Shown piece after piece: positions 493 through 64,000 of a stretch of DNA of 64,000 nt (the stretch's first letter is position 1; each line of letters starts with the position of its first letter). This DNA comes from a virus. Its lineage: Duplodnaviria; Heunggongvirae; Uroviricota; Caudoviricetes. The DNA is taken from IMG/VR virus record IMGVR_UViG_2886837984_000001, positions 1 through 64,000 of that record; one strand, 5' to 3'. The notes under the pieces are model-generated. The model made no database searches and was not told the DNA's origin. It worked only from the letters and a program-made list of their open reading frames with translations. The translations under genes and the position numbers were made by a program.

Positions 493-1926
493 TTAGTCGA
501 AGAACAGTCCGTACTCGAAGTCGGAGTCTTCGGCTTTGAGCTCATCCTCTAAAATAGAGGCGAGCAGGTTTCCGTAGGCGAGGGAAGAATATCTGTCCTT
601 ACGCATACGGCCTTTTTCCTTGAGACGGATCTTTCCGTTCAAGATCTCGTACTCAAGGTTGATCATCTCGTTGATGAGTGCGGTCGTCTGAAAGAACGGC
701 GCTAACATGCGCGCTTGCGTCTCTGAGTCGATTTTGTCGAGCTCATATTTATCTTCCAGGTAGTCCCGTCCCTCGAGGTCGTTCGCAAGTAGTTCGATTT
801 TCCCGTTCTCGATTGCGGCACGAAGTTTCGTGGCGATCGTATGGTTGATGTCGACCGTTGCTTTGACCGTATAGATGACCGGGAGAGCCATCGAGGGAGC
901 TCGTTCGGCCAACGCTTCGTCATTGTCCGACTTCCACGCCTCGTATTCGCTATCCCTCTCGTCGTCCCGTGTAACCTTGATCAATTCGTCATAGACCGAC
1001 ATCCCTAGACCGAGGGCATCGAGAACCGCCCAATCTGCTTCGAAATCATAAAAAAGACGCTTAAACATAAGCGCCTGGTAGTCTGAGTTTGCCCCGTTCA
1101 ACGAGTAGATGTTGACGATCTGTCGTTTGTACTCGCCGCCGTTAGGAAGCAACCGGATCAATGTGAAAATCGAGTTATCGTTATCTTTACCGCCGCTAAG
1201 GGCGACGTCTAGCGAGATGATTCGTTTCTCTCCGTTGACCTTCGGTATCTTCATCTTGGCGACACGTTTCACCGACGACGCGATAGTAGCCTCGTCAAAG
1301 AAGATGGCCGGTTTCAAGACTTTCCGACACTTTTGCATGTCTTCGAGACGGAAATAAGCTTTTTCTGACGAACCGTAGAACAGCGCCTCGTACTCCATCG
1401 AGAATGCGATAGGGTCGAAGTCATCCTCTTGCATCACCTGTTCGATGAACTTCGGCGGAAGCAACCCCTCATGGATCGAGAGGTTGTACTCGAGGTTGAC
1501 GGCGCAATAGTCGTCGTTCCCCTTGAACATCTGATAGGCGATCGCCTTCCATTTGTCGTACACCCAATTCGATCGATAGTGAGCGGACGTCAGGATGATC
1601 TCTGCGTTCGGCTCGACGGGGTAGTCTTTGTATTCGGTCTTGTTCTTGAATCCTGGAATCCGCTGAACGTTCAAGAACGGACGGAATATTTTGGTATAAT
1701 TCTCTGCCTTCAAAAGAATCGCTTCATCGGCCACCAATACCTGAGCACGAACGCCTCGGGCGTTTTCGTTGTTCGGTACGACGGTGATGGACGATCCGTT
1801 ATGGAAGAATACGTCGATGTTGCCACCACTGGTTTGAATCTTTTTGATCTCACGGGCGATATTCGGGTACTGCATGAGTTCCTTCTCTATCTTCTCCGTG
1901 ACAATCATCTTGGCTTGCCCTTTGGT
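493..1926 (-). CDS. terL: Terminase large subunit, exon 3. Covers the ATPase from after the P-loop through Walker B (VLVADE) and the nuclease domain.
   Basis: The first part (TKGQAKMIV...GNIDVFFHNGSSI...ARGV...LVADEA) aligns with T4 gp17 AHKGSMSAEVL...GSIELDNGSSI...VRGN...YIEDCAF. The frame is open from 1926 and carries no Walker A of its own. The region immediately upstream is intron sequence ending in G. Confidence 0.85.
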   Translation of the reverse strand, partial: TKGQAKMIVTEKIEKELMQYPNIAREIKKIQTSGGNIDVFFHNGSSITVVPNNENARGVRAQVLVADEAILLKAENYTKIFRPFLNVQRIPGFKNKTEYKDYPVEPNAEIILTSAHYRSNWVYDKWKAIAYQMFKGNDDYCAVNLEYNLSIHEGLLPPKFIEQVMQEDDFDPIAFSMEYEALFYGSSEKAYFRLEDMQKCRKVLKPAIFFDEATIASSVKRVAKMKIPKVNGEKRIISLDVALSGGKDNDNSIFTLIRLLPNGGEYKRQIVNIYSLNGANSDYQALMFKRLFYDFEADWAVLDALGLGMSVYDELIKVTRDDERDSEYEAWKSDNDEALAERAPSMALPVIYTVKATVDINHTIATKLRAAIENGKIELLANDLEGRDYLEDKYELDKIDSETQARMLAPFFQTTALINEMINLEYEILNGKIRLKEKGRMRKDRYSSLAYGNLLASILEDELKAEDSDFEYGLFFD

Positions 1927-3050
1927 CAGTTTTGTTATCGCATGGGCTTTTTATCCCTTGCTTCTACGCCTACATGGTCTCGGCGTAGCTCAGCATACAT
2001 CTTCACCCTCTAGGGGTGTCGGAGACTCGTGCCGGAATTATATTCTTCTTTGCGAAGGTTCATCCGGTATGCGTTACGATGCCGCCTGACTTTTAATCCA
2101 GGCGATTATCTCGGTATTGGGACATCAAACCATATCCTTTTACCGATATTCCCCGATCATAATCTCGGAGATTGCTCACCGAGACGGCGCCGGAAGATTA
2201 GCGTCGAAAAGTTCTTTCATGAACATAGCTTTCTTGAATTTTCTATCTAAGTGAATTTTCGAGTTGAAGTAATGAGCGTTTAAAAAACGAACAATATCTT
2301 CTCTTCTTGTAATCATTAGTTTATCGTTGTTTTTTCGTTTGGCATAAATACTCGATTTAATACCTAGCGAATCAAAATAAACTTTTAATTCGTTGAGAAC
2401 GACATCTTTATATCCCACGATTTCAACAGCGTAACGATACCGCTCATATCCCCGTTTATCTCTTCCGAACGACATATAAAGAGAACCATCTCCGTCAACA
2501 AATCCTCTAACGAAATGTTTCATCATCGCTGGGTTGATGCCGGTGAGACTCATCGCATATGTTTTGTTATGACCTATCCCGTAAGAAATTATGTCATTAC
2601 ATAATTCGGTTGAATGTATGATAATTTCGCAAGAAGGATATTCTTTACCATTAGACTTAGCTATTTTTTCTCTAACTGGAACATTAGCTTTGATGGCGTT
2701 TTTAAATTTCTCAAGATGACCCTTATCTTCGCCCTTTAAGGTTATTTTTAACGCCTTTGCCCCGGTCTTATCAATGATACAACCGTCTGCTGCGATAAAC
2801 CCTAACCAATACGACTTTTCTTCCGAGTCAATGACTTTAAAGAAATCTTTGTCATAATGATACCGAACAGTCATTCGAGAATATTTGGTATCGGTGATCC
2901 CCAAGGATTTGATTTTATGTCTCACGGATATTTTCGATCTGTTAAGAACGTCTCCGATTTCCTGAGCCGACATGTTTTTTGCATTTTCACTTAGATACAA
3001 TTCTTCTTCTTCAGTCCATTTTTTAACTTTTCGCATATATCTCCTTATTC
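1927..3050 (-). other. Group I-like intron 2 of terL. The homing-endonuclease ORF sits at its 5' end, followed by a structured core of about 250 nt.
   Basis: It lies between exon 2 (ends ...IAIVSG at 3051) and exon 3 (starts TKGQAK at 1926). The core at 1930 to 2175 is about 70% identical to intron 1 and shows compensatory hairpin changes. It ends ...AACAAAACUG followed by the exon. Confidence 0.55.
2176..3036 (-). CDS. LAGLIDADG-family homing endonuclease with two motifs and an N-terminal sigma-70 region-4-like HTH. It is encoded inside the intron.
   Basis: Motifs YWLGFIAADG and FVRGFVDGDGSL. The N-terminus EEEELYLSENAKNMSAQEIGDVLNRSKISVRHKIKSLG is HTH-like. It has its own RBS, AAGGAGATATATG. 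Confidence 0.85.
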   Translation of the reverse strand: MRKVKKWTEEEELYLSENAKNMSAQEIGDVLNRSKISVRHKIKSLGITDTKYSRMTVRYHYDKDFFKVIDSEEKSYWLGFIAADGCIIDKTGAKALKITLKGEDKGHLEKFKNAIKANVPVREKIAKSNGKEYPSCEIIIHSTELCNDIISYGIGHNKTYAMSLTGINPAMMKHFVRGFVDGDGSLYMSFGRDKRGYERYRYAVEIVGYKDVVLNELKVYFDSLGIKSSIYAKRKNNDKLMITRREDIVRFLNAHYFNSKIHLDRKFKKAMFMKELFDANLPAPSR

Positions 3051-3128
3051 ACCACTAACGATTGCTATTTTACTTTTTGGGAAAAGCACACATCTCGTAA
3101 TACAGTAAATCGCAGTCAGGAAGGATTT
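3051..3128 (-). CDS. terL: Terminase large subunit, exon 2. A 78-nt micro-exon encoding KSFLTAIYCITRCVLFPKSKIAIVSG, which supplies the Walker A lysine.
   Basis: Joining exon 1 to exon 2 gives AARGLGKS, a Walker A motif. The peptide aligns with T4 gp17 [25 protein letters not shown]. It is flanked by intron ends: ...AAAAGUG upstream, and an in-frame stop right after GGU downstream. Confidence 0.7.
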
Positions 3129-3402
3129 CACTTTTGTTATCGCAAAGGCTTTTTATCCTCTGCTTCTATATCTACATGGTCTTGATATAGGTCAGCATAT
3201 ATTTTCTTCTCGTCTAGAGAAGCCAAGGACTCGTGGGCGTCACTATGTTCTGCCAAAGCAGTTTCAGACATGCCTATGCGTTACGATATCACTCATCTTT
3301 TAAAACGAATGATTATCTCGGTGTTGGGAACGTGCAATCCATATCCTTTCACCGATATTCCTCGGTTTTCCATACTAGATCGCTCTAATAGGGGGCGAAT
3401 CC
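3129..3402 (-). other. Group I-like intron 1 of terL, 274 nt and ORF-less. It is inserted inside the Walker A codons, between GLG and KS.
   Basis: The exon 1 frame hits a stop 6 codons into this segment. The segment is homologous to the core of intron 2 with covarying stems, for example CTACGCC...GGCGTAG versus CTATATC...GATATAG. The 5' splice site follows a U, with GCCC seven nt downstream to pair with GGGU. The 3' end is G. Confidence 0.6.
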
Positions 3403-3672
3403 ACCCAATCCCCTGGCCGCGATGAACGCGGTGATACTACTGTGGAACATCATATAAATCAAAATCATCTGGAACAGCTTTAAGTCGAGACCGAAATAAT
3501 CTTTGATGAAGCGGTGTGGGTTTGCTCGATAGAAAGAACCCCATACCAAAAGCCCTTCATTCAATCTGTCGGCCTTGTTTTTAGGAAGACCGTCTTTTCG
3601 CTGCTTCTTCTCGCGAGAGTATATGTTTCCTCCGCGCTTGTCTTTGTTTCTGTTGACTTGAAACGCACCCAT
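3403..3672 (-). CDS. terL: Terminase large subunit, exon 1. It is the N-terminal 90 aa, ending ...LFQMILIYMMFHSSITAFIAARGLG.
   Basis: The sequence aligns residue for residue with T4 gp17 [24 protein letters not shown], directly before GKT. Its ATG overlaps the stop of the upstream gene. Confidence 0.7.
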
Positions 3673-4532
3673 TACTTGTCACCATCCAAAACGGACTCGA
3701 TATCGTCGTTCTTCGAACGGAGGTCGAGCGCTCGTTGCATCTGGTTGGTGAACCATTTAGTCATGTATTTCTTGATCCCGTCCACATCCTCGAAGATGTC
3801 TAATGGCTCGGGGATAGGACGCTCGTTCTCGATCTTCTCCATAAACTGACCGAAAGTGGCCGTGGAATTCTCGTCAAAACCGGTCTCCTGGAGTGGTTTG
3901 ATACGGGCATCACCCATTTGGCTCGATGCCGTTCTTTGGAGTTTTTCGTACTCAGATACATTTCCGTTAAATAAAGCTTCGTCTGATTTATGCAATGTGA
4001 TCACATAGCTTCGATAAAGGTTTCTTTTGACCGGTGTATCCGCCTCGTAAGCACTCAACATCTCTTGATACATCGCTTCTAGTTTGATCTTCTCTGCCGA
4101 ACTGAAACCGACCCACCGAGTCTTACTTGCCTGGCTCAACTCGTCGTCATCTTCTGATTCGGGGAACTCCGAGTCGTCCCATGTAAGGTTCGACATGCTG
4201 CTGATGCTGATGGATTTGAAGTAGTTCCCTAAGACCGCTTTTCCTTCCGAGCTATTTTCTGCCGCAATCCACTTGTCTTCGATAAACGGTTTGTCCATCC
4301 GTCGAAGCGTGTCGTAGACCGATACCTGGCTCGTCTCGTCAAACTGGTCTAAAATACATGTTTTACAGGTCGGGAATAGGGCGTCAGAATGATACGGGTT
4401 GGAGGATTTATAGTATTCGCTATATTTCCTCTCCTCACCGCAACAGGTACACGTCTTCAGCGTCCCGTTCTTCACCTTGCTGCTCAGACCCTTGAATTTG
4501 TCTGTGTTGACCGGTCTTGCCATGTCTGTCAC
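3672..4532 (-). CDS. Hypothetical protein with an N-terminal Cys4 zinc ribbon. It is a positional candidate for the terminase small subunit.
   Basis: 286-aa ORF with a CTCCGE...CKTC motif. It lies immediately upstream of terL exon 1 and is translationally coupled to it. It has an acidic central region. Confidence 0.6.
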   Translation of the reverse strand: MTDMARPVNTDKFKGLSSKVKNGTLKTCTCCGEERKYSEYYKSSNPYHSDALFPTCKTCILDQFDETSQVSVYDTLRRMDKPFIEDKWIAAENSSEGKAVLGNYFKSISISSMSNLTWDDSEFPESEDDDELSQASKTRWVGFSSAEKIKLEAMYQEMLSAYEADTPVKRNLYRSYVITLHKSDEALFNGNVSEYEKLQRTASSQMGDARIKPLQETGFDENSTATFGQFMEKIENERPIPEPLDIFEDVDGIKKYMTKWFTNQMQRALDLRSKNDDIESVLDGDK

Positions 4533-4535
4533 TCC

Positions 4536-5726
4536 TTAATTGAAGCGCAGGTTATATGTACAGAGTCGTCCGAGTTCACGCTCCCACACCATGAATTTCT
4601 GATGGGGGATGCTTGTCGCCCGAATGTCTTTCGCAAATTCGTCCACACCCGAGAGTGTGCCGTTTTGAATGATGTCAACGCCGTGAACTTCTTTTTCGAA
4701 GTGGTGGTGTCGATGTCCAAGGAGAACGGCAGCCGGTTTTCGGCCGGTCATGAGCGTCAAGTTCTCGACCACGTTGTTCGGTCGATCCTTGTGACCATGA
4801 ACCCCGTACACTAAGTCTCCGCAAATGTTGATTTCACACAATTCTTCATCGATTTGATTCTCGTGGAACGTCACACGAGCGTTGTTCTCGAGACGTGCTT
4901 TCACGTACCAGTGGATGATATCCATGAAACTCTCAGAAGAGAGCGTCAAGTCTTTCTGTGGTGTGATGCGGTCGTGGTTGCCTCGCACACAGTAGTAGTC
5001 GATACTGAAGTGCTCGGATAGTTCGTTCACGACCTCGGCAAGCACCTCTCCGACACGCATTGTCTGAATCGATACGTTCTCCGTGTTTTCGATACGGATC
5101 GTCTGATGGATGAGTCCTGAAATCATGTCGCCCAATACGGCCACATGCAGACGCTCGATCCCGTTCTCGATCCCGTGTTGGATCACACGGTTCTTGAGGT
5201 AGGCGACCCGTTCGAAGAACACGTTGTTGTCGAACTTGTTCCATGCGTTGTTCGCATGTGTCCCGAAGTGCCAGTCCGAGAAGACCGTGAGACCTTCGCG
5301 TTCCGATACGACGGGAACAGAAAAGTCTTCTTGGATGAGCGGTTTGCTCTGTGCAAGAAGACGGATCTCATGAAGCATATTCGCTTTCATCTCTTCGACT
5401 CGAGCCTCGTCACGCACATAACCTTTGTAGATACGGCGTTGGTCTTGCACCCGAATCTTTTCTTTTTCGAGCTCACGACGTTTGATTTCGAGTTCTGCTG
5501 TCAGATCGTCAAACGATACCGACTTGTCTTCCGCATATCTCATACCTTCTTGGAAGGCCGCATATTTCTTGCGCCACTTCGACTCGCCGTGATCCTTGCC
5601 AAACTCTTCGTTCAAGATCTGTCCGACCTCTACCCAACTCAGACCGTATTGATCCTTGTTCGAGCAGATGCGGACGAAATAATCTTGTTCGGTCTCGTCG
5701 CTCAATCGTTTGATTTCAATCATCAT
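4536..5726 (-). CDS. Calcineurin-like metallophosphoesterase family protein.
   Basis: Motifs HVAVLGD, VRGNHD, GVHGHKD and LGHRHHH. The N-terminal 150 aa is an extra domain. Confidence 0.7.
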   Translation of the reverse strand: MMIEIKRLSDETEQDYFVRICSNKDQYGLSWVEVGQILNEEFGKDHGESKWRKKYAAFQEGMRYAEDKSVSFDDLTAELEIKRRELEKEKIRVQDQRRIYKGYVRDEARVEEMKANMLHEIRLLAQSKPLIQEDFSVPVVSEREGLTVFSDWHFGTHANNAWNKFDNNVFFERVAYLKNRVIQHGIENGIERLHVAVLGDMISGLIHQTIRIENTENVSIQTMRVGEVLAEVVNELSEHFSIDYYCVRGNHDRITPQKDLTLSSESFMDIIHWYVKARLENNARVTFHENQIDEELCEINICGDLVYGVHGHKDRPNNVVENLTLMTGRKPAAVLLGHRHHHFEKEVHGVDIIQNGTLSGVDEFAKDIRATSIPHQKFMVWERELGRLCTYNLRFN

Positions 5727-5920
5727 TAGTCCTCCGAATCTACTGGTTCAACGGTCGTTTTCTCGGTGATGCTGATGACGACTTCTGCGTCATGGAAACG
5801 TTTCAAGACTTCCATGAGGTCGTATTCGAACTCACCGGCTTTCGTGATTTCTGTGACGCGCATCGTGCCGACGTCCAATGATCCTTTAAGTGAAACCGAA
5901 TGTTTGATCTCTGCTGGCAT
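5726..5920 (-). CDS. Hypothetical small protein.
   Basis: ORF in an operon context. The start is more likely the internal ATG at 5920 (MPAEIKH...) than the TTG used by the ORF track. Confidence 0.4.
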   Translation of the reverse strand: MPAEIKHSVSLKGSLDVGTMRVTEITKAGEFEYDLMEVLKRFHDAEVVISITEKTTVEPVDSED

Positions 5921-5921
5921 C

Positions 5922-6083
5922 TCAGACCACCTCCGATTCAAAGGTGAAGTCTTCGACCTTTTCGAGCTCGTCTTTTACGATATCGAGTTGCTCTTTGATC
6001 TCCGTGTTGCATTTGTGACCGGCTTTCTGAAGCTCTGCAAGAACCTCAAGGAAGCGGAGTCGGTAGTTTAATTTTTCGTTCAT
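5922..6083 (-). CDS. Hypothetical small protein, 53 aa: MNEKLNYRLRFLEVLAELQK...
   Basis: ATG at 6083 with GGAGAG upstream. Its stop lies 1 nt before the ATG of the next gene. This is the first gene of the leftward operon. Confidence 0.35.
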   Translation of the reverse strand: MNEKLNYRLRFLEVLAELQKAGHKCNTEIKEQLDIVKDELEKVEDFTFESEVV

Positions 6084-6104
6084 CGTTCATCTCTCCGTTT
6101 CTAT

Positions 6105-6190
6105 GTATGTTCTAATGTTAGAATATATAAGTTCTATAATTAGAAGATTAATGTTCTAACGTTAGACTATTTATGTTCTAATGTTAGAAT
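6105..6190. promoter_or_regulatory. Array of four palindromic sites, TGTTCTAA-YG-TTAGAAT, spaced about 22 bp apart. A candidate operator array upstream of the leftward late operon.
   Basis: Three near-identical copies at about 6106, 6152 and 6174, plus a degenerate TTCTATAATTAGAA at about 6133. They are read directly from the sequence. Confidence 0.45.
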
Positions 6191-6200
6191 TTTGTTTGCA

Positions 6201-6247
6201 AAAAAAAGACTCGCCCTAGTCCGCATCGTTGATAGGCGTGGCGAGTT
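6201..6247 (-). terminator. Putative rho-independent terminator on the minus strand.
   Basis: GACTCGCC and GGCGAGT arms are followed on the minus strand by a U8 run (A8 on plus, 6200 to 6207). Confidence 0.35.
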
Positions 6248-6364
6248 CATGTCTAATTCAATTGCGGAGAGGTCTCCCTAACCGCTTTAGTCCGGGTGTG
6301 GTACAGGACTTTGCTCTGGTGTCGACGAATCGACATGATAGTAGAATCGAATGAAGGGGAGTTT

Positions 6365-6462
6365 GTTGGCCAGGTTTCCCACACCTCATTAGAGTTTTTT
6401 AGCCAGGTGTCTAATCACCTCTCGAATTTTATTTAGCCAGGTGTTTTGCCACCTCACGACAT
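6365..6462. promoter_or_regulatory. Three copies of TTAGCCAGGTGT-N5-6-CACCTC, an inverted repeat AGGTG/CACCT, at a spacing of about 31 bp.
   Basis: The copies sit at about 6369, 6401 and 6433. The palindromes GAGGGTTGACCCTC and GACGTC...GACGTC follow. Confidence 0.35.
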
Positions 6463-7114
6463 TCGATTCTAGAAAGGTGAGGGTTGACCCTCATGATAAA
6501 ATGGCGCCTTTATTGGACGTCAAAAATGAAAATATAACGCCTGAAACCAAAAGTGACGTCCCACGTAGTTGTGGCTTTTTCGTCAGGTTGCGAACCTGAT
6601 CCGGTGATAATTTGTCCGCAACGAGGCAGGACGATGTATGCACTCAATTGTGCGGTGCGCTAGGCACAAAATATAAAGACCCGACGAGGTTCGCTTCTAT
6701 GCTAGGCGTGTCGGGTTCCGGTAAATCAAATAAGACCCCAAAGGGTCGTGACAAATTTCTTTGCCACCAAATTGGTCTTTACAAATCAAATTTGCACCAC
6801 TTAAGGCGCGGGTTATCCAAATGAGGACACCCTCAATATAGAAGGCTCGAAGTGTTTCGCATATTCAGAGGCGTTTTCGAACTACTGTTCTAAAAAATAG
6901 ATGACGCCCCGTCTACGCCTTAGGGGGATAGCTTTCGTAGCATTGTTTTCCTTTTTTCAAAGCCGCTACGCCGGAGCAGGTTTCATCTCTAACCCGCTAG
7001 TTTTGAACACCCATTCGCCCACACAGCCTTTTGTCCGAAGTCTCGTTGACAGTCGATTGGATCGATACAAGATGACCTTCGGGGGTCTGAGTAGGAATTC
7101 TGGATGCCAAATTT

Positions 7115-13968: not shown

Positions 13969-14988
13969 ATGGAAGCCATCAAAACAGTAGCGTTGAACAC
14001 GACAAACATTCAGAGCAATATCCGATTGTTCTTAGATAAGAAGGGGCTCAACTCCGATCAGACACGACGGGCATATGAGCGAGATATCGAGGAGTTCTTC
14101 ATCTTCTCGAAGAACAAGGCTGTCTCCGGTCTATTGGAGTCAGACGTATCGTTCTCGCCGCAAGACGTCGACAAATATCTCGTCCATCTGTCGGAGAAAG
14201 GGACTGCCTCGTCCACGATCAATCGTAAAGTCGTCTCTGTACGCTCTCTGATGCGCTACCTTGACCGCTTGGACGGATATGACATCAACTTATCGGCGTT
14301 CGATACCGGCTCTGTGAAGGGCGCTCAGAACTCGTATGGGGTGCTCACGTATGAAGAGACGGAGATGATGGCGAGCCGTGTCCTGTCTCACCGTAACGGT
14401 CAGATGAAGGCCGCCCTCATTCGTTTGGCCGTGGTGACGAGTTTCCGCTTGGATTCGCTCTTGCGATTGACGAAGACGGACTTTATGAATCAGCGAGGCG
14501 TGTGGACGGTGACAACGGTGGGGAAGGGCGGAGAACGTGATACGAAGGCTATCCGTGACGAGTTGTACGAAGAGATCCGCATGATCATGATGTTTAAAGA
14601 GGACGATGAGCCGATCTTCAAATTGTCTCCTGGGACTGCGTTGAACATGGTTAAGGGTCTGTCTGAGGAGATGGGGGTTCCGAAAGAGCGCAATATCACG
14701 TTCCACTCGCTGAAGAAGGCCGGTGTGACAGAGGTGTGGGTGCAGACGGGGTACGACGCTATGAAGACGAAGAAACAGGGGGCGCACAAGAACTTCTCTA
14801 CGACAGAGCGGTACATCGAGAACAACGAAGACTTCTCGCAGTCACAGAGCCTCTTGATCGGAAAAGAGATTGACTTGTCTATGTTGGACGGGCTGTCTAA
14901 AGACGAACTGCTCGAGTTCATCAACGGCATGAACCGCAGCGTGAAGATGCAGATCAAAAATGAGATCAAGAAAAAAGGGATGGCGTAA
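13969..14988 (+). CDS. Tyrosine recombinase or integrase, XerD/phage-integrase family.
   Basis: N-terminal core-binding region TRRAYERDIEEF. Candidate catalytic R in VVTSFRLDSL. HSLKKAGVT. The C-terminal motif is GAHKNFSTTERY. Confidence 0.75.
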   Translation: MEAIKTVALNTTNIQSNIRLFLDKKGLNSDQTRRAYERDIEEFFIFSKNKAVSGLLESDVSFSPQDVDKYLVHLSEKGTASSTINRKVVSVRSLMRYLDRLDGYDINLSAFDTGSVKGAQNSYGVLTYEETEMMASRVLSHRNGQMKAALIRLAVVTSFRLDSLLRLTKTDFMNQRGVWTVTTVGKGGERDTKAIRDELYEEIRMIMMFKEDDEPIFKLSPGTALNMVKGLSEEMGVPKERNITFHSLKKAGVTEVWVQTGYDAMKTKKQGAHKNFSTTERYIENNEDFSQSQSLLIGKEIDLSMLDGLSKDELLEFINGMNRSVKMQIKNEIKKKGMA

Positions 14989-34143: not shown

Positions 34144-35370
34144 GTGGAGACGATGGTGAACGAAGATCTAACCCCGCAACGTTTAGCAGAAGTATTGCAA
34201 GATTTTCTGTACGAAAACCGTTATGATCATGATTTATTTAATGATTTACAAAAGAATTTGAAAAAACATGAAATATTTTCTAAAGATATTACAGATATTA
34301 TGAATAAAAGAACAGATTTCAAAGATATTCCTGCCACCGAGCTCGTGTTGTTTGCGCGGATTGTGTACGGCCGCTTTCCCGACTTCGAGATCATCAATCC
34401 GCAACGCTATTTCAAGCCAGGAGAGATCAAGGCGGCGCAATATTATACCCGCAACAATCGTCCTGAGTATATCAAACTTCCTTTGACAGTGAACAACGCA
34501 TTAAGCGTCCAGTACGACGAGTATATCGCCATCATGTCGGCCAAACAGCTCGTCAAGATGTTGGATAGCAGCATTGTCACCTACAACTTCGACTCACAGC
34601 GCGACGCGAAGAGCATGGTGGACACGAACGGAAGAATCGTGAGAGCGATCAACGTCAACCAAAAGTCGGTCATCGAGATCGCGCAACTGATGTTGAACGG
34701 AGAATATCTCCCCGATATGCTGACATTTAATATGTTGTTAGGTTCTAATGACGAAAGAGAAGAGTTTTCCTCTAAAGGAAACAGTATTGTCGTCAACGAA
34801 GGGACTCAGCTCGACATCTTGGACGGATTCCATCGTCTGTCTGCCATGCAGCAAGCGGTCGAAGCGAATCCAGAATTCGACTTAAACTTCCCTGTCGCCT
34901 TTAAAAACTTTGATATCCAAAAAGCGAAGCGCTATGTCGGTCAAACGAACACGTTTAACGTCATGCCTAAGGCGTATGTCGAGCAACTGAGAGCCAAAGA
35001 CCACTACGCATACATCGTCAACGAGCTCATCAACAACAGCGACCTGAAGGGGCGTGTGGGGTATCAGCGACGCCCAATCTTCGACAACGGAGAGATCACT
35101 ACGTTCGACCGTCTAAAGAATGCCATTCAGAAACAGTATAACGTCAAGATGAAACGAGAAGCGATGGGTGTGGTGGAGACACTTGTCCCGTTGTTCGATG
35201 AATTGATTTTCCTATACCTATCAGAGAAACCTGATCCACATGAAACATTGTTTGCTACGGTCGACGGGATAGATCGATTGTTAAATAAATATAAAAAGAT
35301 TGATAAAGATATAAAACGTGTCGATTTAGATTTCTTATTAGCCACAACAGAAAAAGGACAATTATTATGA
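34144..35370 (+). CDS. ParB/Srx-fold (ParB N-terminal domain-like) nuclease-domain protein.
   Basis: The LDILDGFHRLSAM motif is of the DGxHR type. 408 aa. RBS AAGAGGTGGAG. Confidence 0.5.
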   Translation: METMVNEDLTPQRLAEVLQDFLYENRYDHDLFNDLQKNLKKHEIFSKDITDIMNKRTDFKDIPATELVLFARIVYGRFPDFEIINPQRYFKPGEIKAAQYYTRNNRPEYIKLPLTVNNALSVQYDEYIAIMSAKQLVKMLDSSIVTYNFDSQRDAKSMVDTNGRIVRAINVNQKSVIEIAQLMLNGEYLPDMLTFNMLLGSNDEREEFSSKGNSIVVNEGTQLDILDGFHRLSAMQQAVEANPEFDLNFPVAFKNFDIQKAKRYVGQTNTFNVMPKAYVEQLRAKDHYAYIVNELINNSDLKGRVGYQRRPIFDNGEITTFDRLKNAIQKQYNVKMKREAMGVVETLVPLFDELIFLYLSEKPDPHETLFATVDGIDRLLNKYKKIDKDIKRVDLDFLLATTEKGQLL

Positions 35371-36431
35371 CAAACTTAGAGAATTTTGAAACCAATAAGC
35401 AAAAATTATTAGATGATGACCTATTTTATAATGCAGAATATAAATTAGATTTCTTAGACAAACATAAAACCAAAACACAGGATTTTAATTTTTACTATCG
35501 ATTATTTATCAACGTAAAAGAAAAAGAAGAAAGCCTTGGTCGTGATATGTACGACTTCTCTCGTCGTGATATCGAGGATGTCGTGTCGGGGATGCACCCG
35601 TCGACCTCTTCTGCTGCCGCCAAAATCATCGCAATGATCAAGCGATACCTGACTCACGCGGCACAAGACGGCGAAAAGAGTTCAAATATCGTTCACCAGG
35701 TAGGCAAATTGACAGATATGGCGAATAGTTTTCTTCCTAGTAATCCGAAATTCTATGTGTCAGAAGCAGAATTACAATTATTAGAAGATAGCTGTATGAA
35801 TCCGCAGGACGCATTTATCTTCCGGGCGATCTTCGAAGGGGTTTTGGGGGCTGAGATGACCGAGCTACGCAACCTAAAGATGAGCGATATCGATATCCAT
35901 CAAAATTTAGTCTCAATCAATATAGCTGATTACAACAAGAACCGGACAATCCGAGTGACAGAGCGATTTATTGATATGGCCGTAAAAGCATATGAACAGA
36001 AAGTATATATATTAAATAATGGCGAAGACGTCAGCGAGAACTTCATGCGCGCAAACACAGAATACGAGTTAGAAGATTCGGGATACATTATGAAGAAGTC
36101 GCATATTGGACGTATGATCAAGGATGCTCCGATTACGACGCCGACGCTATACAAACGATTTAATAACATCAAGGCGTTTCAATCATTCGAGACGATCGAT
36201 AAATATTACTTGAAATTCAACAACATTTATAAGAGCGGTGCGATCTGGTATGGGGCTCGTTATATAGAAGAAAAGCAGATAGCAATCAAGAAACTGACGG
36301 ACGATCATATGAAAGAGGTGGCTCGCCACGTCAAGAACGTCTATCAAGATCTCCCGGTAGATATCAAGAAGATCGTGAACGTTGAGAATATCGAAGAGTT
36401 ATATGTGGAAAAAGGGAAGATTATTTCGTAA
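35367..36431 (+). CDS. Hypothetical protein.
   Basis: 354-aa ORF, coupled to its neighbour. A weak tyrosine-recombinase-like box (LGAEMTELRNLKMSDID) lacks the catalytic Arg, so no product call is made. Confidence 0.55.
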   Translation: MTNLENFETNKQKLLDDDLFYNAEYKLDFLDKHKTKTQDFNFYYRLFINVKEKEESLGRDMYDFSRRDIEDVVSGMHPSTSSAAAKIIAMIKRYLTHAAQDGEKSSNIVHQVGKLTDMANSFLPSNPKFYVSEAELQLLEDSCMNPQDAFIFRAIFEGVLGAEMTELRNLKMSDIDIHQNLVSINIADYNKNRTIRVTERFIDMAVKAYEQKVYILNNGEDVSENFMRANTEYELEDSGYIMKKSHIGRMIKDAPITTPTLYKRFNNIKAFQSFETIDKYYLKFNNIYKSGAIWYGARYIEEKQIAIKKLTDDHMKEVARHVKNVYQDLPVDIKKIVNVENIEELYVEKGKIIS

Positions 36432-37631: not shown

Positions 37632-38678
37632 ATGAGCTTAAAAGACTTGCAACCGATCGTACCGAAAGCGCACTTGGAAGACTATATTACGACGATCTAC
37701 GGGCCGCCAAAGGTCGGTAAGACGACATTGGCGTTCAATCTTGGAAAAGAGCACTTCGGTTCGACACAAGAGACGTTGATCCTTGGTTTCGAGGACGGGT
37801 TCAAAGCTCTCACGGGTGCGATGGCCGTCTCGATCAAAGATTGGTCGCACTTCCTCGAGTTATCAGAAGAACTGATTGACGAGAAGGAAGACATGCCGTA
37901 CAAGCTTCTTGTGTTAGACACAGCGGACGGGATGAGCAGCATGGCGTCGAAGTACGTCGTCCGACGCGAGAGCAAGGCCGACCAGAAGCGCTACCGCACA
38001 ATCAAAGACATCCCTTGGGGTCGAGGCGGAGAAGCGTTGCGTGTCGAAATCCAAGAGGCGATCGAACGTCTCGCCAAGTTTTACGGGATTTTGATCATCA
38101 CACACGGAAAAGAGAAGAAAATCGAGCCTAAAGTCGGCGCTTCTTACGATACGACGACGCTATCTTTAGATGGCAAGGTATTGGATGTCGTTAAGAACAT
38201 TTCAGACTTCATCGTTTATCTTTCTCCCGAGCGTGAAAAAGGCAAGAACAAAGAGGTCAAGCGGTTCATGTATTTCCGCGACGAGTCGATGTTTGAAGCC
38301 GGATCTCGTTTCGACAAAATCAAGGCGAAAGTGCCTTACGGGGCAAAAAACTTCCTCGACACAGTTAAAGATGCGGTCGAGAACGCCAACAAAGGCATCG
38401 GTTCTGACAACGAGACAGAAGAAGTTGAAGAGTCCGCTCTTCCGACGACAGCGTCCGACACACAAGACCAGCAGGACGACAGCGACGCAAGTGAGGTTGA
38501 AGTAAAAGACGTCAAGACGTTGCGCGCCGAACTCCAAGCGTCGGTCAAAGGACTGACTGCTGATCAGAAAAAATCTCTTCGAAGCTTCATGGTCGAGGAG
38601 ATCGGATCGAGCAAGTTTGCTGAGATTGACCAGATTTCTGAATTAGAGTCTATTCAATCGTTCATCGACGAGTTATAA
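37632..38678 (+). CDS. RecA-like AAA_24-family ATPase, a Sak4-like recombination or replication protein.
   Basis: Walker A GPPKVGKTTLA. Walker B LLVLDTAD. Acidic C-terminus. Confidence 0.6.
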   Translation: MSLKDLQPIVPKAHLEDYITTIYGPPKVGKTTLAFNLGKEHFGSTQETLILGFEDGFKALTGAMAVSIKDWSHFLELSEELIDEKEDMPYKLLVLDTADGMSSMASKYVVRRESKADQKRYRTIKDIPWGRGGEALRVEIQEAIERLAKFYGILIITHGKEKKIEPKVGASYDTTTLSLDGKVLDVVKNISDFIVYLSPEREKGKNKEVKRFMYFRDESMFEAGSRFDKIKAKVPYGAKNFLDTVKDAVENANKGIGSDNETEEVEESALPTTASDTQDQQDDSDASEVEVKDVKTLRAELQASVKGLTADQKKSLRSFMVEEIGSSKFAEIDQISELESIQSFIDEL

Positions 38679-61973: not shown

Positions 61974-62516
61974 ATGAAAAAAATGCTAGTTATTCTAGGT
62001 ATTTTGATTATTGTTGGGGCAGGGATTGGTTATACAATGATTTCTGGCTCTGCGAGCTCCGAAATACCAGCGGATCGATATGGTAAGTTTGAGACATTTG
62101 AGGCTGATGACCGCGAACTGATAGAGTATGTGATCGAGTATAATAAATTCAACGAAGAATTAAAGACTCTAGATTTAACATATGCTTTCATTTTAGGTTC
62201 TGACGACAAACTGAATCAATACGAACTAGCAATGTCTTACGTCGAGCTCTACACAGAACTCCAGGGAAAGATCTATATCTTCAACAAAAATAACAAGGTT
62301 CCATCTGAATATAAGACCCTACACGAATCATTGATCAAAGAAATCGGAATCGCAGATTTGATCACAGAAGAGTACGAAGATGCGATCGAGAACGAAGATT
62401 TCTCTAAACTAGAAGAATTAATGAAAATCTCTAGCGATGCTCGTAAAGATGGGTTGGCGTCGACAGATCGTATAGAATATTTTGAAGATGTGAATGAATT
62501 CATCCTTAAAAACTGA
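61974..62516 (+). CDS. Hypothetical membrane-anchored protein.
   Basis: RBS CAAGGGAGAG. N-terminal TM helix. Confidence 0.55.
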   Translation: MKKMLVILGILIIVGAGIGYTMISGSASSEIPADRYGKFETFEADDRELIEYVIEYNKFNEELKTLDLTYAFILGSDDKLNQYELAMSYVELYTELQGKIYIFNKNNKVPSEYKTLHESLIKEIGIADLITEEYEDAIENEDFSKLEELMKISSDARKDGLASTDRIEYFEDVNEFILKN

Positions 62517-62542
62517 GACCTAAATGGTCTCTTTTTTGTCAC
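62512..62542 (+). terminator. Rho-independent terminator.
   Basis: GAGACC taaat GGTCTC followed by TTTTTTGT. Confidence 0.6.
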
Positions 62543-62628
62543 AAGAATGAATTAAAAAAGTATTGTTGCTTATTATCATGTGTGCTACAATAAGGTTGTG
62601 CAATAAAATATCTATTTTGGGAGGGATT

Positions 62629-62784
62629 ATGATGACAAAAGTGGTCTGTTTGACGGAATTTAGAGGCAGAAAGTTGGCCAGAGACCATAAAGAGCGTGAG
62701 TATCTGACAAATCTGACGCGAGAAGTCTTACATATGATTCAAAAAGAGATGCCAAAGCGAGACAATCCGACCGCAAGTGTTTGA
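62629..62784 (+). CDS. Hypothetical small protein, 51 aa.
   Basis: RBS TTGGGAGGGATT. Confidence 0.45.
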   Translation: MMTKVVCLTEFRGRKLARDHKEREYLTNLTREVLHMIQKEMPKRDNPTASV

Positions 62785-62826
62785 TTGAAACGCCGTCTAA
62801 ATAAAAAAGTATAGGAGATGTTTTAT

Positions 62827-64000
62827 TTGTTTGAAGCGATCGATAGAATCATCAACCAAGCTGACAAAGACGTAACGAACGAGAATGCGAACGTGAGCGG
62901 ATCAGAACCACAGGGGATCATGGCGATCATGGCAGGGAGCGTCGGGCAAGAGTATGCGCTCGAGAAGCTTGTCGATAAAGACGTGGCTGAATTACATCGT
63001 ATGGGATATCTACATATTCATGACCTTGATTACTATCCGACAGGAACGACGACATGTCTTCAGATTCCTGTCGGTAAATTATTGAAGGACGGATTTTCGG
63101 TGAAGGACAGCTTCATGCGAGAGCCAGGGAACATCACATCGGCCTTTGCGTTGGTTGCGGTTATCTTCCAGATCCACCAAAACATGCAGCATGGCGGGCA
63201 AGCTATGAGCGCATTAGACGTAGATTTAGCACCGTATGTCACAAAGACGTTCGACAAACATTATAAGTGGTTCGTTGATGCAGGTTTATATAAACACGAA
63301 GCACTTAGCTTGGCTAAAGCAAAGACGATCGACGAAACTTATCAGGCTGCCGAAGCATTTGTTCATAATATGAACTCAATGACATCTCGAGGCGGAGGGC
63401 AAACGGTGTTTAGTTCTATTAACTTTGGCTTGGGAACTAAAGATGAAGAAAGAGCGATTTCCTTCGCCTTGTTACGTGCGATGAAGAATGGTTTAGGAAA
63501 AGGCGAACAACCAATCTTTCCAATCATGATTTTCCAGCTTAAAAAAGGTGTGAATATGTATAAGGGAGACCCAAACTATGATTTGTTCGAAGAGTCGTTG
63601 TCGGTGACGGCAGAACGTTTCTTCCCGAACTACGTGTTCCTGGATGCGAGTTTCAATGGCCGTCATTACGACGCAGATAGACCCGAGACATGGGCTGCAT
63701 CGATGGGCTGTGTGGATGGAAGTTCGGAGATTGTTACAGACAAAGGAAGAGTGAGCATCGAAACGCTATTTAATGTTTTAGAAGTAACCGAGGGCGCTAA
63801 ATGGCAAGCTCAATCTTGTTATATCGAACCAAAAGATCAACTCGTCTTCGATTCTATTGCAGGACGCTTCGTGAAGGTCTTGAAGGTTATTAAGAACCCC
63901 GATCAAGCAAACTGGTTCAAACTAACTTTCTCAAACGGAATTAGCATCTATGCTACCGAAGATCATCCTTTCGACATCGTTGGCAAAGGCAGAACTTTTG
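62827..64000 (+). CDS. nrdD: Anaerobic ribonucleoside-triphosphate reductase NrdD, class III. It is 3' partial and interrupted by an intein starting at about 63718.
   Basis: TTG start 9 nt after AGGAG. It aligns to T4 NrdD at NENAN, HIHD/HVHD, HGG/YGG and KGDPNYD. After ...AASMG comes CVDGSSEIVTDKGRVSIETLF, an intein block A. ...ATEDHPF is block B. The window ends inside the intein. Confidence 0.75.
   Translation, partial: MFEAIDRIINQADKDVTNENANVSGSEPQGIMAIMAGSVGQEYALEKLVDKDVAELHRMGYLHIHDLDYYPTGTTTCLQIPVGKLLKDGFSVKDSFMREPGNITSAFALVAVIFQIHQNMQHGGQAMSALDVDLAPYVTKTFDKHYKWFVDAGLYKHEALSLAKAKTIDETYQAAEAFVHNMNSMTSRGGGQTVFSSINFGLGTKDEERAISFALLRAMKNGLGKGEQPIFPIMIFQLKKGVNMYKGDPNYDLFEESLSVTAERFFPNYVFLDASFNGRHYDADRPETWAASMGCVDGSSEIVTDKGRVSIETLFNVLEVTEGAKWQAQSCYIEPKDQLVFDSIAGRFVKVLKVIKNPDQANWFKLTFSNGISIYATEDHPFDIVGKGRTF

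What the first reader, a model, noticed from the sequence alone, without database searches (positions are those of the whole stretch)
62827..64000. nrdD carries an intein inserted at the conserved MGC active-site motif
The N-terminal 297 aa align to T4 NrdD up to ...ASMG. The sequence then continues CVDGSSEIVTDKGRVSIETLF, a Hint block A, and ATEDHPF, block B, instead of the expected CRSF continuation. This is a protein-splicing element inserted immediately before the catalytic cysteine. Together with the terL introns and homing endonuclease, it shows this phage carries several selfish genetic elements in essential genes.
Basis: partly seen in the sequence, partly recalled or inferred. Interest (0 to 1): 0.65.

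Follow-up and report, generated by a model that had tools for sequence, protein, structure and literature searches.

The report
Mini-intein at NrdD catalytic cysteine
The phage's anaerobic ribonucleotide reductase gene does carry a small self-splicing protein insert (a 154-residue mini-intein without a homing nuclease) immediately before the enzyme's radical cysteine; this is a correct call, but an ordinary new member of an intein family already widespread at this site.

Summary
An ORF starts at TTG 62827 and runs off the window end. Its residues 1-294 are NrdD (Pfam PF13597, E 1.8e-77). Residues 295-391 match the curated intein N-terminal model TIGR01445 above its cut-off. A 606-aa intein-less allele (84% identical) aligns without gaps up to the Cys codon at 63709-63711 and then reads CRTR.

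A public 760-aa protein, WP_161568776.1 from Exiguobacterium sp. SH5S4, matches all 391 window codons. It supplies the missing part: the intein is 154 aa, ends ...DLVSHN, and is followed by CRTRTLENVNG and the rest of NrdD, including the glycyl-radical motif. It has no endonuclease domain.

An AlphaFold2 model (pLDDT 96.3) matches solved mini-inteins (TM 0.84-0.86). The insertion lies between G289 and C290 of the T4 MGCR finger-loop motif.

A library-wide search found 66 of 83 representative relatives with the same MG|C junction, both mini and LAGLIDADG forms. Clostridium phage c-st and Eggerthella phage EL753P1 carry NrdD inteins at the homologous position.

This is a new member of a known kind. 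Splicing activity is inferred, not shown.

The parts
62827..63708 (+). nrdD N-extein, 294 codons, TTG start, ending ...ETWAASMG (= M288-G289 of the T4 MGCR motif)
   Evidence: Pfam PF13597 at E 1.8e-77 and NCBIfam PRK14704 at E 1.6e-106. Gapless alignment at 77% nucleotide identity to the intein-less nrdD of L002, 10001-10885. T4 numbering comes from the alignment.
63709..64000 (+). N-terminal 97 residues of the 154-residue mini-intein, cut by the window end; Cys1 codon TGT at 63709-63711
   Evidence: TIGR01445 scores 29.2 bits against a cut-off of 24.5. Identical to residues 295-391 of P0121. DNA homology to the empty allele stops right after the TGT. An HMM built from family alignment A1 gives E 1.5e-30 for this ORF and hits nothing else in six-frame translation of the window.
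63709..63747 (+). Intein block A (CVDGSSEIVTDKG), with the nucleophile Cys1
   Evidence: Read from the sequence. C1 is invariant and G4 nearly invariant in the 16-member family alignment.
63952..63972 (+). Intein block B (ATEDHPF) with the TxxH motif (T83, H86 of the intein)
   Evidence: Read from the sequence. T83, D85, H86 and P87 are invariant in alignment A1.
62629..62784 (+). Small conserved upstream ORF (51 aa) between the terminator at 62515-62531 and nrdD; probably first gene of the same transcription unit, function unknown
   Evidence: ORF seen. Terminator-like site and promoter-like site at 62552-62579. The ORF is conserved upstream of the intein-less nrdD in L002, 9799-9951.

Best explanation
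The window ends inside the nrdD gene (class III, anaerobic ribonucleotide reductase catalytic subunit) of an SPbeta-like temperate phage found in the Exiguobacterium sp. SH5S4 assembly. The gene is interrupted in frame by a class 1 mini-intein of 154 residues, placed between Gly294 and the finger-loop radical cysteine.

Inferred mechanism, canonical class 1 splicing:
- The 760-aa precursor cannot be active, because the intein splits the MG|CR finger-loop motif.
- Cys1 of the intein makes an N-S acyl shift at the Gly294-Cys295 bond.
- The first C-extein residue, Cys449 of the precursor, is the future thiyl-radical cysteine. It attacks the thioester.
- The terminal Asn154 cyclises with help from the penultimate His153, releasing the intein.
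- An S-N shift restores ...ASMG-CRTR... in a 606-aa NrdD, which the radical-SAM activase NrdG can then activate.

The intein has no homing-endonuclease domain. It is therefore a fixed, vertically inherited descendant of the LAGLIDADG-bearing inteins that occupy the same site elsewhere, and it cannot home on its own.

Shown: the anatomy, the insertion point, the conserved catalytic residues, the predicted HINT fold, and the presence/absence polymorphism. Inferred: that splicing actually occurs and that the spliced enzyme works.
For: N-extein and intein N-terminal models. The full-length protein P0121 = WP_161568776.1 matches all 391 window codons and gives a 154-aa intein ending SHN, followed by CRTR and 312 further NrdD residues. 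These include RIRRITGYLVG and a Cys-rich zinc-ribbon stretch. P0121 reaches the equivalog cut-off of PRK14704, 737.3 against 736 bits, despite the insert.

The empty-site alleles P0001-P0003 (84% identity, 606 aa) read ASMG|CRTRTLENING. The DNA alignment ends exactly after the Cys codon, with conserved synteny upstream and a radical-SAM nrdG-like gene directly downstream in L002.

Family alignment: C1, T83/H86, D137/T140 and S152-H153-N154 are invariant. The profile hits solved inteins, including NrdJ-1 at 2.5e-8 and Pab PolII at 1.5e-7. The AlphaFold2 model has pLDDT 96.3. Its Foldseek top hits are all inteins, with Pho RadA at TM 0.84-0.86.

No endonuclease family was found in Pfam or NCBIfam. 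The catalytic-Cys assignment rests.
Against: The C-terminal 57 intein residues and the C-extein are not in the window. They come from a database protein with an identical overlap, and no DNA contig could be fetched for it. Pfam PF14890 (Intein_splicing) scores only 17-20 bits, below its cut-off of 35.8. No intein C-terminal model was reported. No experiment shows splicing. The structure model rests on a 16-sequence alignment of relatives from the same family.
Confidence: 0.92

Rival explanations
1. The insert is a decayed, splicing-dead intein remnant. The phage nrdD would then be a pseudogene, or it would yield an inactive precursor.
For: It has no endonuclease and is the shortest of 50 complete family members. 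The first ~35 residues are shorter and more divergent than in relatives. Pfam's Intein_splicing model falls below its cut-off.
Against: Every residue that is invariant in the family and needed for class 1 splicing is intact: C1, TxxH, the block F Asp, HN and +1 Cys. The ORF is uninterrupted over 760 aa and both exteins keep strong NrdD scores. The model is confident throughout.
Confidence: 0.06
2. The intein is kept as a post-translational switch. Cys1 and the +1 radical cysteine would form a disulfide under oxidising conditions. Splicing, and therefore NrdD maturation, would then occur only in the reducing, anoxic conditions where this oxygen-sensitive enzyme can work.
For: Both splice-junction nucleophiles are cysteines, and the +1 Cys is the enzyme's radical site. 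Disulfide- or oxidation-controlled splicing is documented for other inteins, such as mycobacterial DnaB (PMC6195587). A mini-intein with no endonuclease persists in an otherwise intact gene.
Against: Nothing here tests it. Cys1/Cys+1 is the commonest intein junction. Persistence of mini-inteins at conserved sites is explained equally well by the difficulty of precise deletion. Close relatives do without the intein.
Confidence: 0.1
3. The Hint-like stretch is not an intein. It would instead be a bacterial intein-like (BIL) domain, or a chance in-frame read-through of an intron or other insertion.
For: The window shows only blocks A and B. The family profile also gives a weak hit to a BIL domain (2lwy, E 0.0027).
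Against: The insertion sits in a highly conserved catalytic motif and is flanked by a +1 Cys with the HN junction. It is homologous to the NrdD insert of Eggerthella phage EL753P1, which has the full intein layout (CADERE...LAGIVDADGYV...SHN|CRTR). Rfam finds no RNA family in the window. The top structural matches are canonical inteins.
Confidence: 0.01

Closest known systems
NrdD intein of Eggerthella phage EL753P1 (OP172808.1, nrdD 3741-6599; not annotated as an intein in the record)
   Same: Same insertion point (YMG|C ... SHN|CRTR). The splicing domain is homologous: 48% identity over window intein residues 38-97 at E 5e-9, and 137 bits to the family HMM. Both are in a phage nrdD.
   Different: It is 338 aa with a LAGLIDADG endonuclease domain (LAGIVDADGYV) between blocks B and F. 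The window's intein is 154 aa with none. The host phage is a different, 44-kb type.
Putative NrdD intein of Clostridium phage c-st (and D-1873), reported by Dwivedi et al. 2013 (PMC3653736)
   Same: Homologous position. It lies between C329 and C330 of the SCCR motif, which PMC4493059 aligns with T4 MGCR 288-291. c-st's annotation notes many SPbeta Yo* homologues, and the window's terL fragment is closest to SPbeta-like phages.
   Different: It is 330 aa with LAGLIDADG-type motifs and sits in the divergent NrdDh subclass. Similarity to this intein family is only generic (18.9 bits).
Metagenomic MG|C-site NrdD intein family (representatives P0122-P0203)
   Same: 66 of 83 relatives carry MGC at the intein start. 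50 have complete MG|C...HN|C junctions. Twenty of those are mini-inteins of 154-178 aa with the same block pattern.
   Different: The best non-self relative is only about 50% identical, and over only two thirds of the N-terminal part. The window's member is the shortest. None of its 120 closest NrdD homologues carries an intein, judging by their lengths of 303-664 aa.
Solved mini-inteins (Pyrococcus horikoshii RadA 4e2t, Pab PolII 2lcj, NrdJ-1 8ubs, TFIIB 5o9i)
   Same: HINT horseshoe fold, TM 0.72-0.86. Sequence-profile matches down to 2.5e-8.
   Different: Only 13-20% sequence identity. The host proteins and insertion sites differ.
T4 nrdD group I intron with I-TevII
   Same: The same host gene is invaded by a self-splicing selfish element.
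   Different: It is an RNA intron, not an intein. It is inserted after about codon 180, not at codon 289/290.

Membership tests
Intein (class 1, HINT domain) | In-frame insertion in a conserved host protein, precisely absent from close homologues | tested here: met
   P0001-P0003 (84% identity, 606 aa) read ASMG|CRTR. The DNA alignment to L002 is gapless up to the Cys codon and then diverges.
Intein (class 1, HINT domain) | Cys/Ser nucleophile at intein position 1 (block A) | tested here: met
   Cys295 of the precursor, codon 63709-63711. It is invariant in the family alignment.
Intein (class 1, HINT domain) | Block B TxxH motif | tested here: met
   T83-E-D-H86 (ATEDHPF, 63952-63972). T, D, H and P are invariant in A1.
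Intein (class 1, HINT domain) | Blocks F and G with penultimate His and terminal Asn | tested here: met
   This lies outside the window. In the identical-overlap protein P0121 the sequence is FSFDLETDSDRFDVNDLVSHN. D137, T140, S152, H153 and N154 are invariant.
Intein (class 1, HINT domain) | Cys/Ser/Thr at +1 and resumption of host-protein homology | tested here: met
   P0121 continues CRTRTLENVNG... to the NrdD C-terminus. PRK14704 covers residues 444-759.
Intein (class 1, HINT domain) | HINT fold | tested here: met
   AlphaFold2 model at pLDDT 96.3. The top 24 Foldseek PDB hits are all inteins, TM up to 0.86. The profile also matches PDB inteins.
Intein (class 1, HINT domain) | Match to curated intein HMMs above threshold | tested here: inconclusive
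   TIGR01445 (N-terminal region) passes, at 29.2/28.3/32.0 bits against 24.5. Pfam PF14890 fails, at 17-20 bits against 35.8. No C-terminal intein model was reported.
Intein (class 1, HINT domain) | Autocatalytic excision with extein ligation | not testable with these tools
   This needs expression of the precursor followed by SDS-PAGE or mass spectrometry.
Mobile (homing) intein | Embedded LAGLIDADG or HNH homing endonuclease domain | tested here: not met
   Only 154 aa. No endonuclease family appears in Pfam or NCBIfam, and no LAGLIDADG motif was found. It is therefore a mini-intein.
NrdD (class III ribonucleotide reductase catalytic subunit) | Match to NrdD family models | tested here: met
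   Window part: PF13597 at 261.7 bits and TIGR02487 at 239.6 bits. Full P0121: TIGR02487 at 546 bits (cut-off 326) and PRK14704 at 737.3 bits (cut-off 736).
NrdD (class III ribonucleotide reductase catalytic subunit) | Finger-loop radical cysteine (MGCR in T4, C290) | tested here: met
   The MG|C...|CR of the precursor aligns with T4 M288-G289-C290-R291 (motif as stated in PMC4493059).
NrdD (class III ribonucleotide reductase catalytic subunit) | C-terminal glycyl-radical motif and zinc-ribbon cysteines | tested here: met
   Outside the window. P0121 has CNECRLTTTIYDECPKCG and RIRRITGYLVG, aligned to 8p23 and T4 through the homologue P0001.
NrdD (class III ribonucleotide reductase catalytic subunit) | Adjacent NrdG radical-SAM activase | not testable with these tools
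   It would lie beyond the window end. In the related phage locus L002 a 150-aa radical-SAM gene overlaps the nrdD stop.

The most novel reading that the evidence does not exclude
The endonuclease-free mini-intein is retained because it works as a redox- or oxygen-gated maturation switch. A Cys1-Cys+1 disulfide, or oxidation of the junction thiols, would hold NrdD as an inert precursor in air. Splicing would release the radical cysteine only under reducing, anoxic conditions. That would couple phage dNTP supply to the physiology of a facultatively anaerobic host.
Probability: 0.08. Interest if true: 0.6.

Novelty: new member of a known kind. Interest (0 to 1): 0.25.

Why it matters
Mostly for annotation. 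The public records call this protein 'anaerobic ribonucleoside-triphosphate reductase' (760 aa) or 'hypothetical protein' (763 aa), and neither name flags the intein. The mature enzyme is therefore 606 aa, not 760.

It adds a compact 154-aa, Cys1/Cys+1 mini-intein to a family that targets the radical cysteine of class III RNR. Only one homologous member of that family was found among 50,697 deposited phage records. It also gives a clean pair of intein-plus and intein-minus alleles in related SPbeta-like phages.

Mini-inteins are useful raw material for protein engineering. The junction at an oxygen-sensitive enzyme's catalytic thiol would be a reasonable test case for conditional splicing. No long-standing question is opened or closed by it.

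Tried and rejected
- **Reading past the window end.** Exact-match scans with a 59-base pattern from the window end found nothing in viral, genome or metagenome contigs. Megablast against deposited phages found nothing. The look-up of encoding contigs has no record for P0121. The downstream DNA therefore could not be read, and the protein record substitutes for it.
- **Word-indexed homologue search.** With the 97-aa intein part it returned nothing. With the 391-aa query it did not list the identical protein. Only the exhaustive HMMER search found that protein.
- **MT837933.1.** It looked like a second intein-bearing phage contig. Its nrdD is uninterrupted (AYMGCRTRVIGN), so it was rejected.
- **Intron-intein coincidence with T4.** The T4 nrdD intron lies after about codon 180, not at MGCR. 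Rejected.
- **Group I introns.** I looked in the window, especially in the split terL. Rfam gave no match at gathering scores, and only a chance snoRNA hit at E 0.28.
- **A second intein.** An HMM of the family hit only this ORF in six-frame translation of the window.
- **Composition.** The GC difference between N-extein (45.9%) and intein part (41.8%) is small and was not pursued.

Full report
**What is in the window**

The last 1,174 bases hold an ORF that begins at TTG 62827. GGAG sits at 62814-62817, nine bases upstream, and the related phage locus L002 uses the same TTG start. The ORF runs without a stop to position 64000, 391 codons.

Residues 1-294 match anaerobic ribonucleotide reductase NrdD. 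Pfam PF13597 gives E 1.8e-77 and NCBIfam PRK14704 gives E 1.6e-106. The best solved relatives are 8p23 and T4 NrdD 1h78.

After ...ETWAASMG the sequence departs from NrdD and reads CVDGSSEIVTDKGRVSIETLF...ATEDHPF. Residues 295-382 score 29.2 bits against TIGR01445 (intein N-terminal splicing region), whose curated cut-off is 24.5, at E 1.4e-6.

**The insertion point**

The closest NrdD homologues are P0001-P0003. They are 606 aa, 83-84% identical, come from metagenome assemblies and lack any insert. They read ...ETWAASMG-CRTRTLENINGE.

I fetched one of their loci, L002. Window 62827-63711 aligns to L002 10001-10885 without a gap at 77% nucleotide identity. Similarity stops immediately after the shared TGT codon. 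The upstream genes are syntenic, and in L002 a 150-aa radical-SAM gene (nrdG-like) overlaps the nrdD stop.

None of the 120 best NrdD homologues has an intein-sized excess length. Among near relatives the element is therefore a presence/absence polymorphism.

**The part beyond the window**

Exact-pattern scans of the three contig collections and a megablast of deposited phages did not find the source DNA. An exhaustive HMMER search with the 97 intein residues returned P0121. P0121 is a 760-aa protein identical to all 391 window codons, apart from the TTG start read as M. It is WP_161568776.1, 'anaerobic ribonucleoside-triphosphate reductase [Exiguobacterium sp. SH5S4]', on a 121,308-bp contig.

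P0121 shows that the intein is 154 residues, precursor positions 295-448. It ends ...FSFDLETDSDRFDVNDLVSHN and is followed by CRTRTLENVNGEARAIGRGNLSF and the rest of NrdD. That rest includes a Cys-rich zinc-ribbon stretch and the glycyl-radical motif RIRRITGYLVG.

Even with the insert, the whole protein reaches the PRK14704 equivalog cut-off, 737.3 against 736 bits. No endonuclease family is detected. One caveat remains: it rests on a protein record with an identical overlap, not on contig DNA, which could not be fetched.

**Is it a bona fide intein?**

I aligned 16 mini-inteins from the same site. The invariant positions are C1; T83, D85, H86 and P87 (block B, TxxH); D137 and T140 (block F); and S152-H153-N154 (block G). 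The window's member has all of them, plus Cys at +1.

A profile of the alignment hits solved inteins. NrdJ-1 scores 2.5e-8 and Pab PolII 1.5e-7. CDC21, KlbA, TFIIB, gp41-1 and RadA inteins also match.

An AlphaFold2 model of the 154 residues has mean pLDDT 96.3 and pTM 0.88. Its Foldseek matches in the PDB are inteins from the top of the list down. The Pyrococcus horikoshii RadA intein scores TM 0.84-0.86.

Weak points are that Pfam's Intein_splicing model stays below its threshold (17-20 bits against 35.8) and that no C-terminal intein HMM was reported. Splicing itself cannot be tested here.

**Which residue is interrupted**

In the HMMER alignment of the intein-less homologue to T4 NrdD, the MGC cysteine falls on T4 residue 290. 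[quoted passage not shown]

The intein therefore lies between G289 and C290 in T4 numbering. The +1 splice nucleophile is the future thiyl-radical cysteine, so the precursor cannot be catalytically competent.

**How it most likely works**

These steps are inferred from the canonical class 1 mechanism (reviewed in PMC4031507, listed):
- an N-S acyl shift at Gly294-Cys295;
- trans-thioesterification by Cys449;
- cyclisation of Asn448, assisted by His447;
- an S-N shift that gives the 606-aa enzyme with ASMG-CRTR restored, which NrdG then activates.

The intein lacks a homing endonuclease, so it cannot home by itself. The simplest history is descent from an endonuclease-bearing intein of the same site, followed by loss of that domain.

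**How common this is**

Of the 83 representative relatives (50%-identity clusters; E <= 1e-3), 66 contain MGC at the start of the intein. Fifty have both junctions, MG|C...HN|C(R/K)(T/S).

Their lengths are bimodal. Twenty are 154-178 aa. Most of the rest are 348-381 aa, and 21 of those match a LAGLIDADG motif pattern. The window's intein is the shortest. Its best non-self relative is only about 50% identical over two thirds of the query.

Among 50,697 deposited phage records, only Eggerthella phage EL753P1 has a homologous NrdD intein. It is 338 aa, carries LAGLIDADG, has the same YMG|C...SHN|CRTR junctions, and is not annotated as an intein.

Dwivedi et al. 2013 had already reported putative inteins in nrdD of Clostridium phage c-st and D-1873. 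I checked c-st. Its 330-aa LAGLIDADG intein sits at ...ALASC|CFDG...ITHN|CRLTS. That is between C329 and C330 of the SCCR motif, the homologous position, though in a divergent NrdD subclass and with only generic intein similarity.

Inteins in RNR genes in general are among the commonest in bacteria (PMC4760082).

**Context**

The window encodes phage replication and packaging functions. These include a DnaB-like helicase, a primase, a RecJ-like exonuclease, a sigma factor, PhoH and integrase-like proteins.

The terL fragment is closest to those of SPbeta-like phages of Bacillus, Lysinibacillus and Clostridioides, at 40-45% identity. c-st's annotation also notes many SPbeta homologues.

Window GC is 43%, against 51.6% reported for the SH5S4 genome (PMC7374977).

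terL is split around a LAGLIDADG-type ORF. Rfam finds no group I intron there or anywhere else in the window. The T4 nrdD intron is at a different place, about codon 180.

**Verdict**

Both the observation and the interpretation are correct. The main refinement is that this is a 154-aa endonuclease-free mini-intein. It is a new, fairly divergent member of a known and widespread family of inteins at the radical cysteine of class III RNR.

A regulatory (redox-gated) role is not excluded, and there are precedents in other inteins (PMC6195587). Nothing here supports it specifically. Interest is low to moderate.

Noticed in passing
window 493-3672, - strand: terL appears split. The N-terminal fragment ORF 3385-3672 ends inside ...FIAARGLG. 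Next comes a 286-aa ORF at 2176-3036 with two LAGLIDADG-like motifs (WLGFIAADGCI, FVRGFVDGDGSL; phrog_4645 endonuclease). The terL C-terminal ORF follows at 493-1908. Rfam finds no group I intron at gathering or E<=1 thresholds, so the nature of the intervening sequence is unresolved.
   Followed up: partly
window 62629-62784 (+); L002 9799-9951: A 51-aa ORF (MMTKVVCLTEFRGRKLARDHKEREYLTNLTREVLHMIQKEM...) lies between an intrinsic-terminator-like hairpin (62515-62531) and nrdD. It is conserved in the same position upstream of the intein-less nrdD of a related phage. Its function is unknown.
   Followed up: partly
whole window: The window most likely comes from a 121,308-bp contig of the Exiguobacterium sp. 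SH5S4 isolate assembly (GCA_004337045.1). Its gene content resembles an SPbeta-like temperate phage. Its GC is 43%, against 51.6% for the host genome. The genome paper on the strain does not mention phages.
   Followed up: partly
window 62818 vs 62827: Public records disagree on the nrdD start. GenBank TCI26726.1 is 763 aa from ATG 62818 and is named 'hypothetical protein'. RefSeq WP_161568776.1 is 760 aa from TTG 62827. Neither name mentions the intein. RBS spacing and the homologue in L002 favour the TTG.
   Followed up: yes
window 13969-14988 (+) and 35367-36431 (+): Two tyrosine-recombinase/integrase-like ORFs (phrog_1, phrog_5830) sit inside the phage region. This fits a temperate lifestyle or resolvase functions.
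   Followed up: no
window 37632-38678 (+): A 348-aa ORF matches both a PHROG labelled 'terminase large subunit' (C-terminal part of phrog_19299) and the Sak4-like ssDNA annealing protein (phrog_124). This is probably a mislabelled PHROG rather than a second terminase.
   Followed up: no
L001 (OP172808.1) 3741-6599: The nrdD of Eggerthella phage EL753P1 is annotated as a plain 952-aa NrdD. It contains an unannotated 338-aa LAGLIDADG intein at the same MG|C site.
   Followed up: yes
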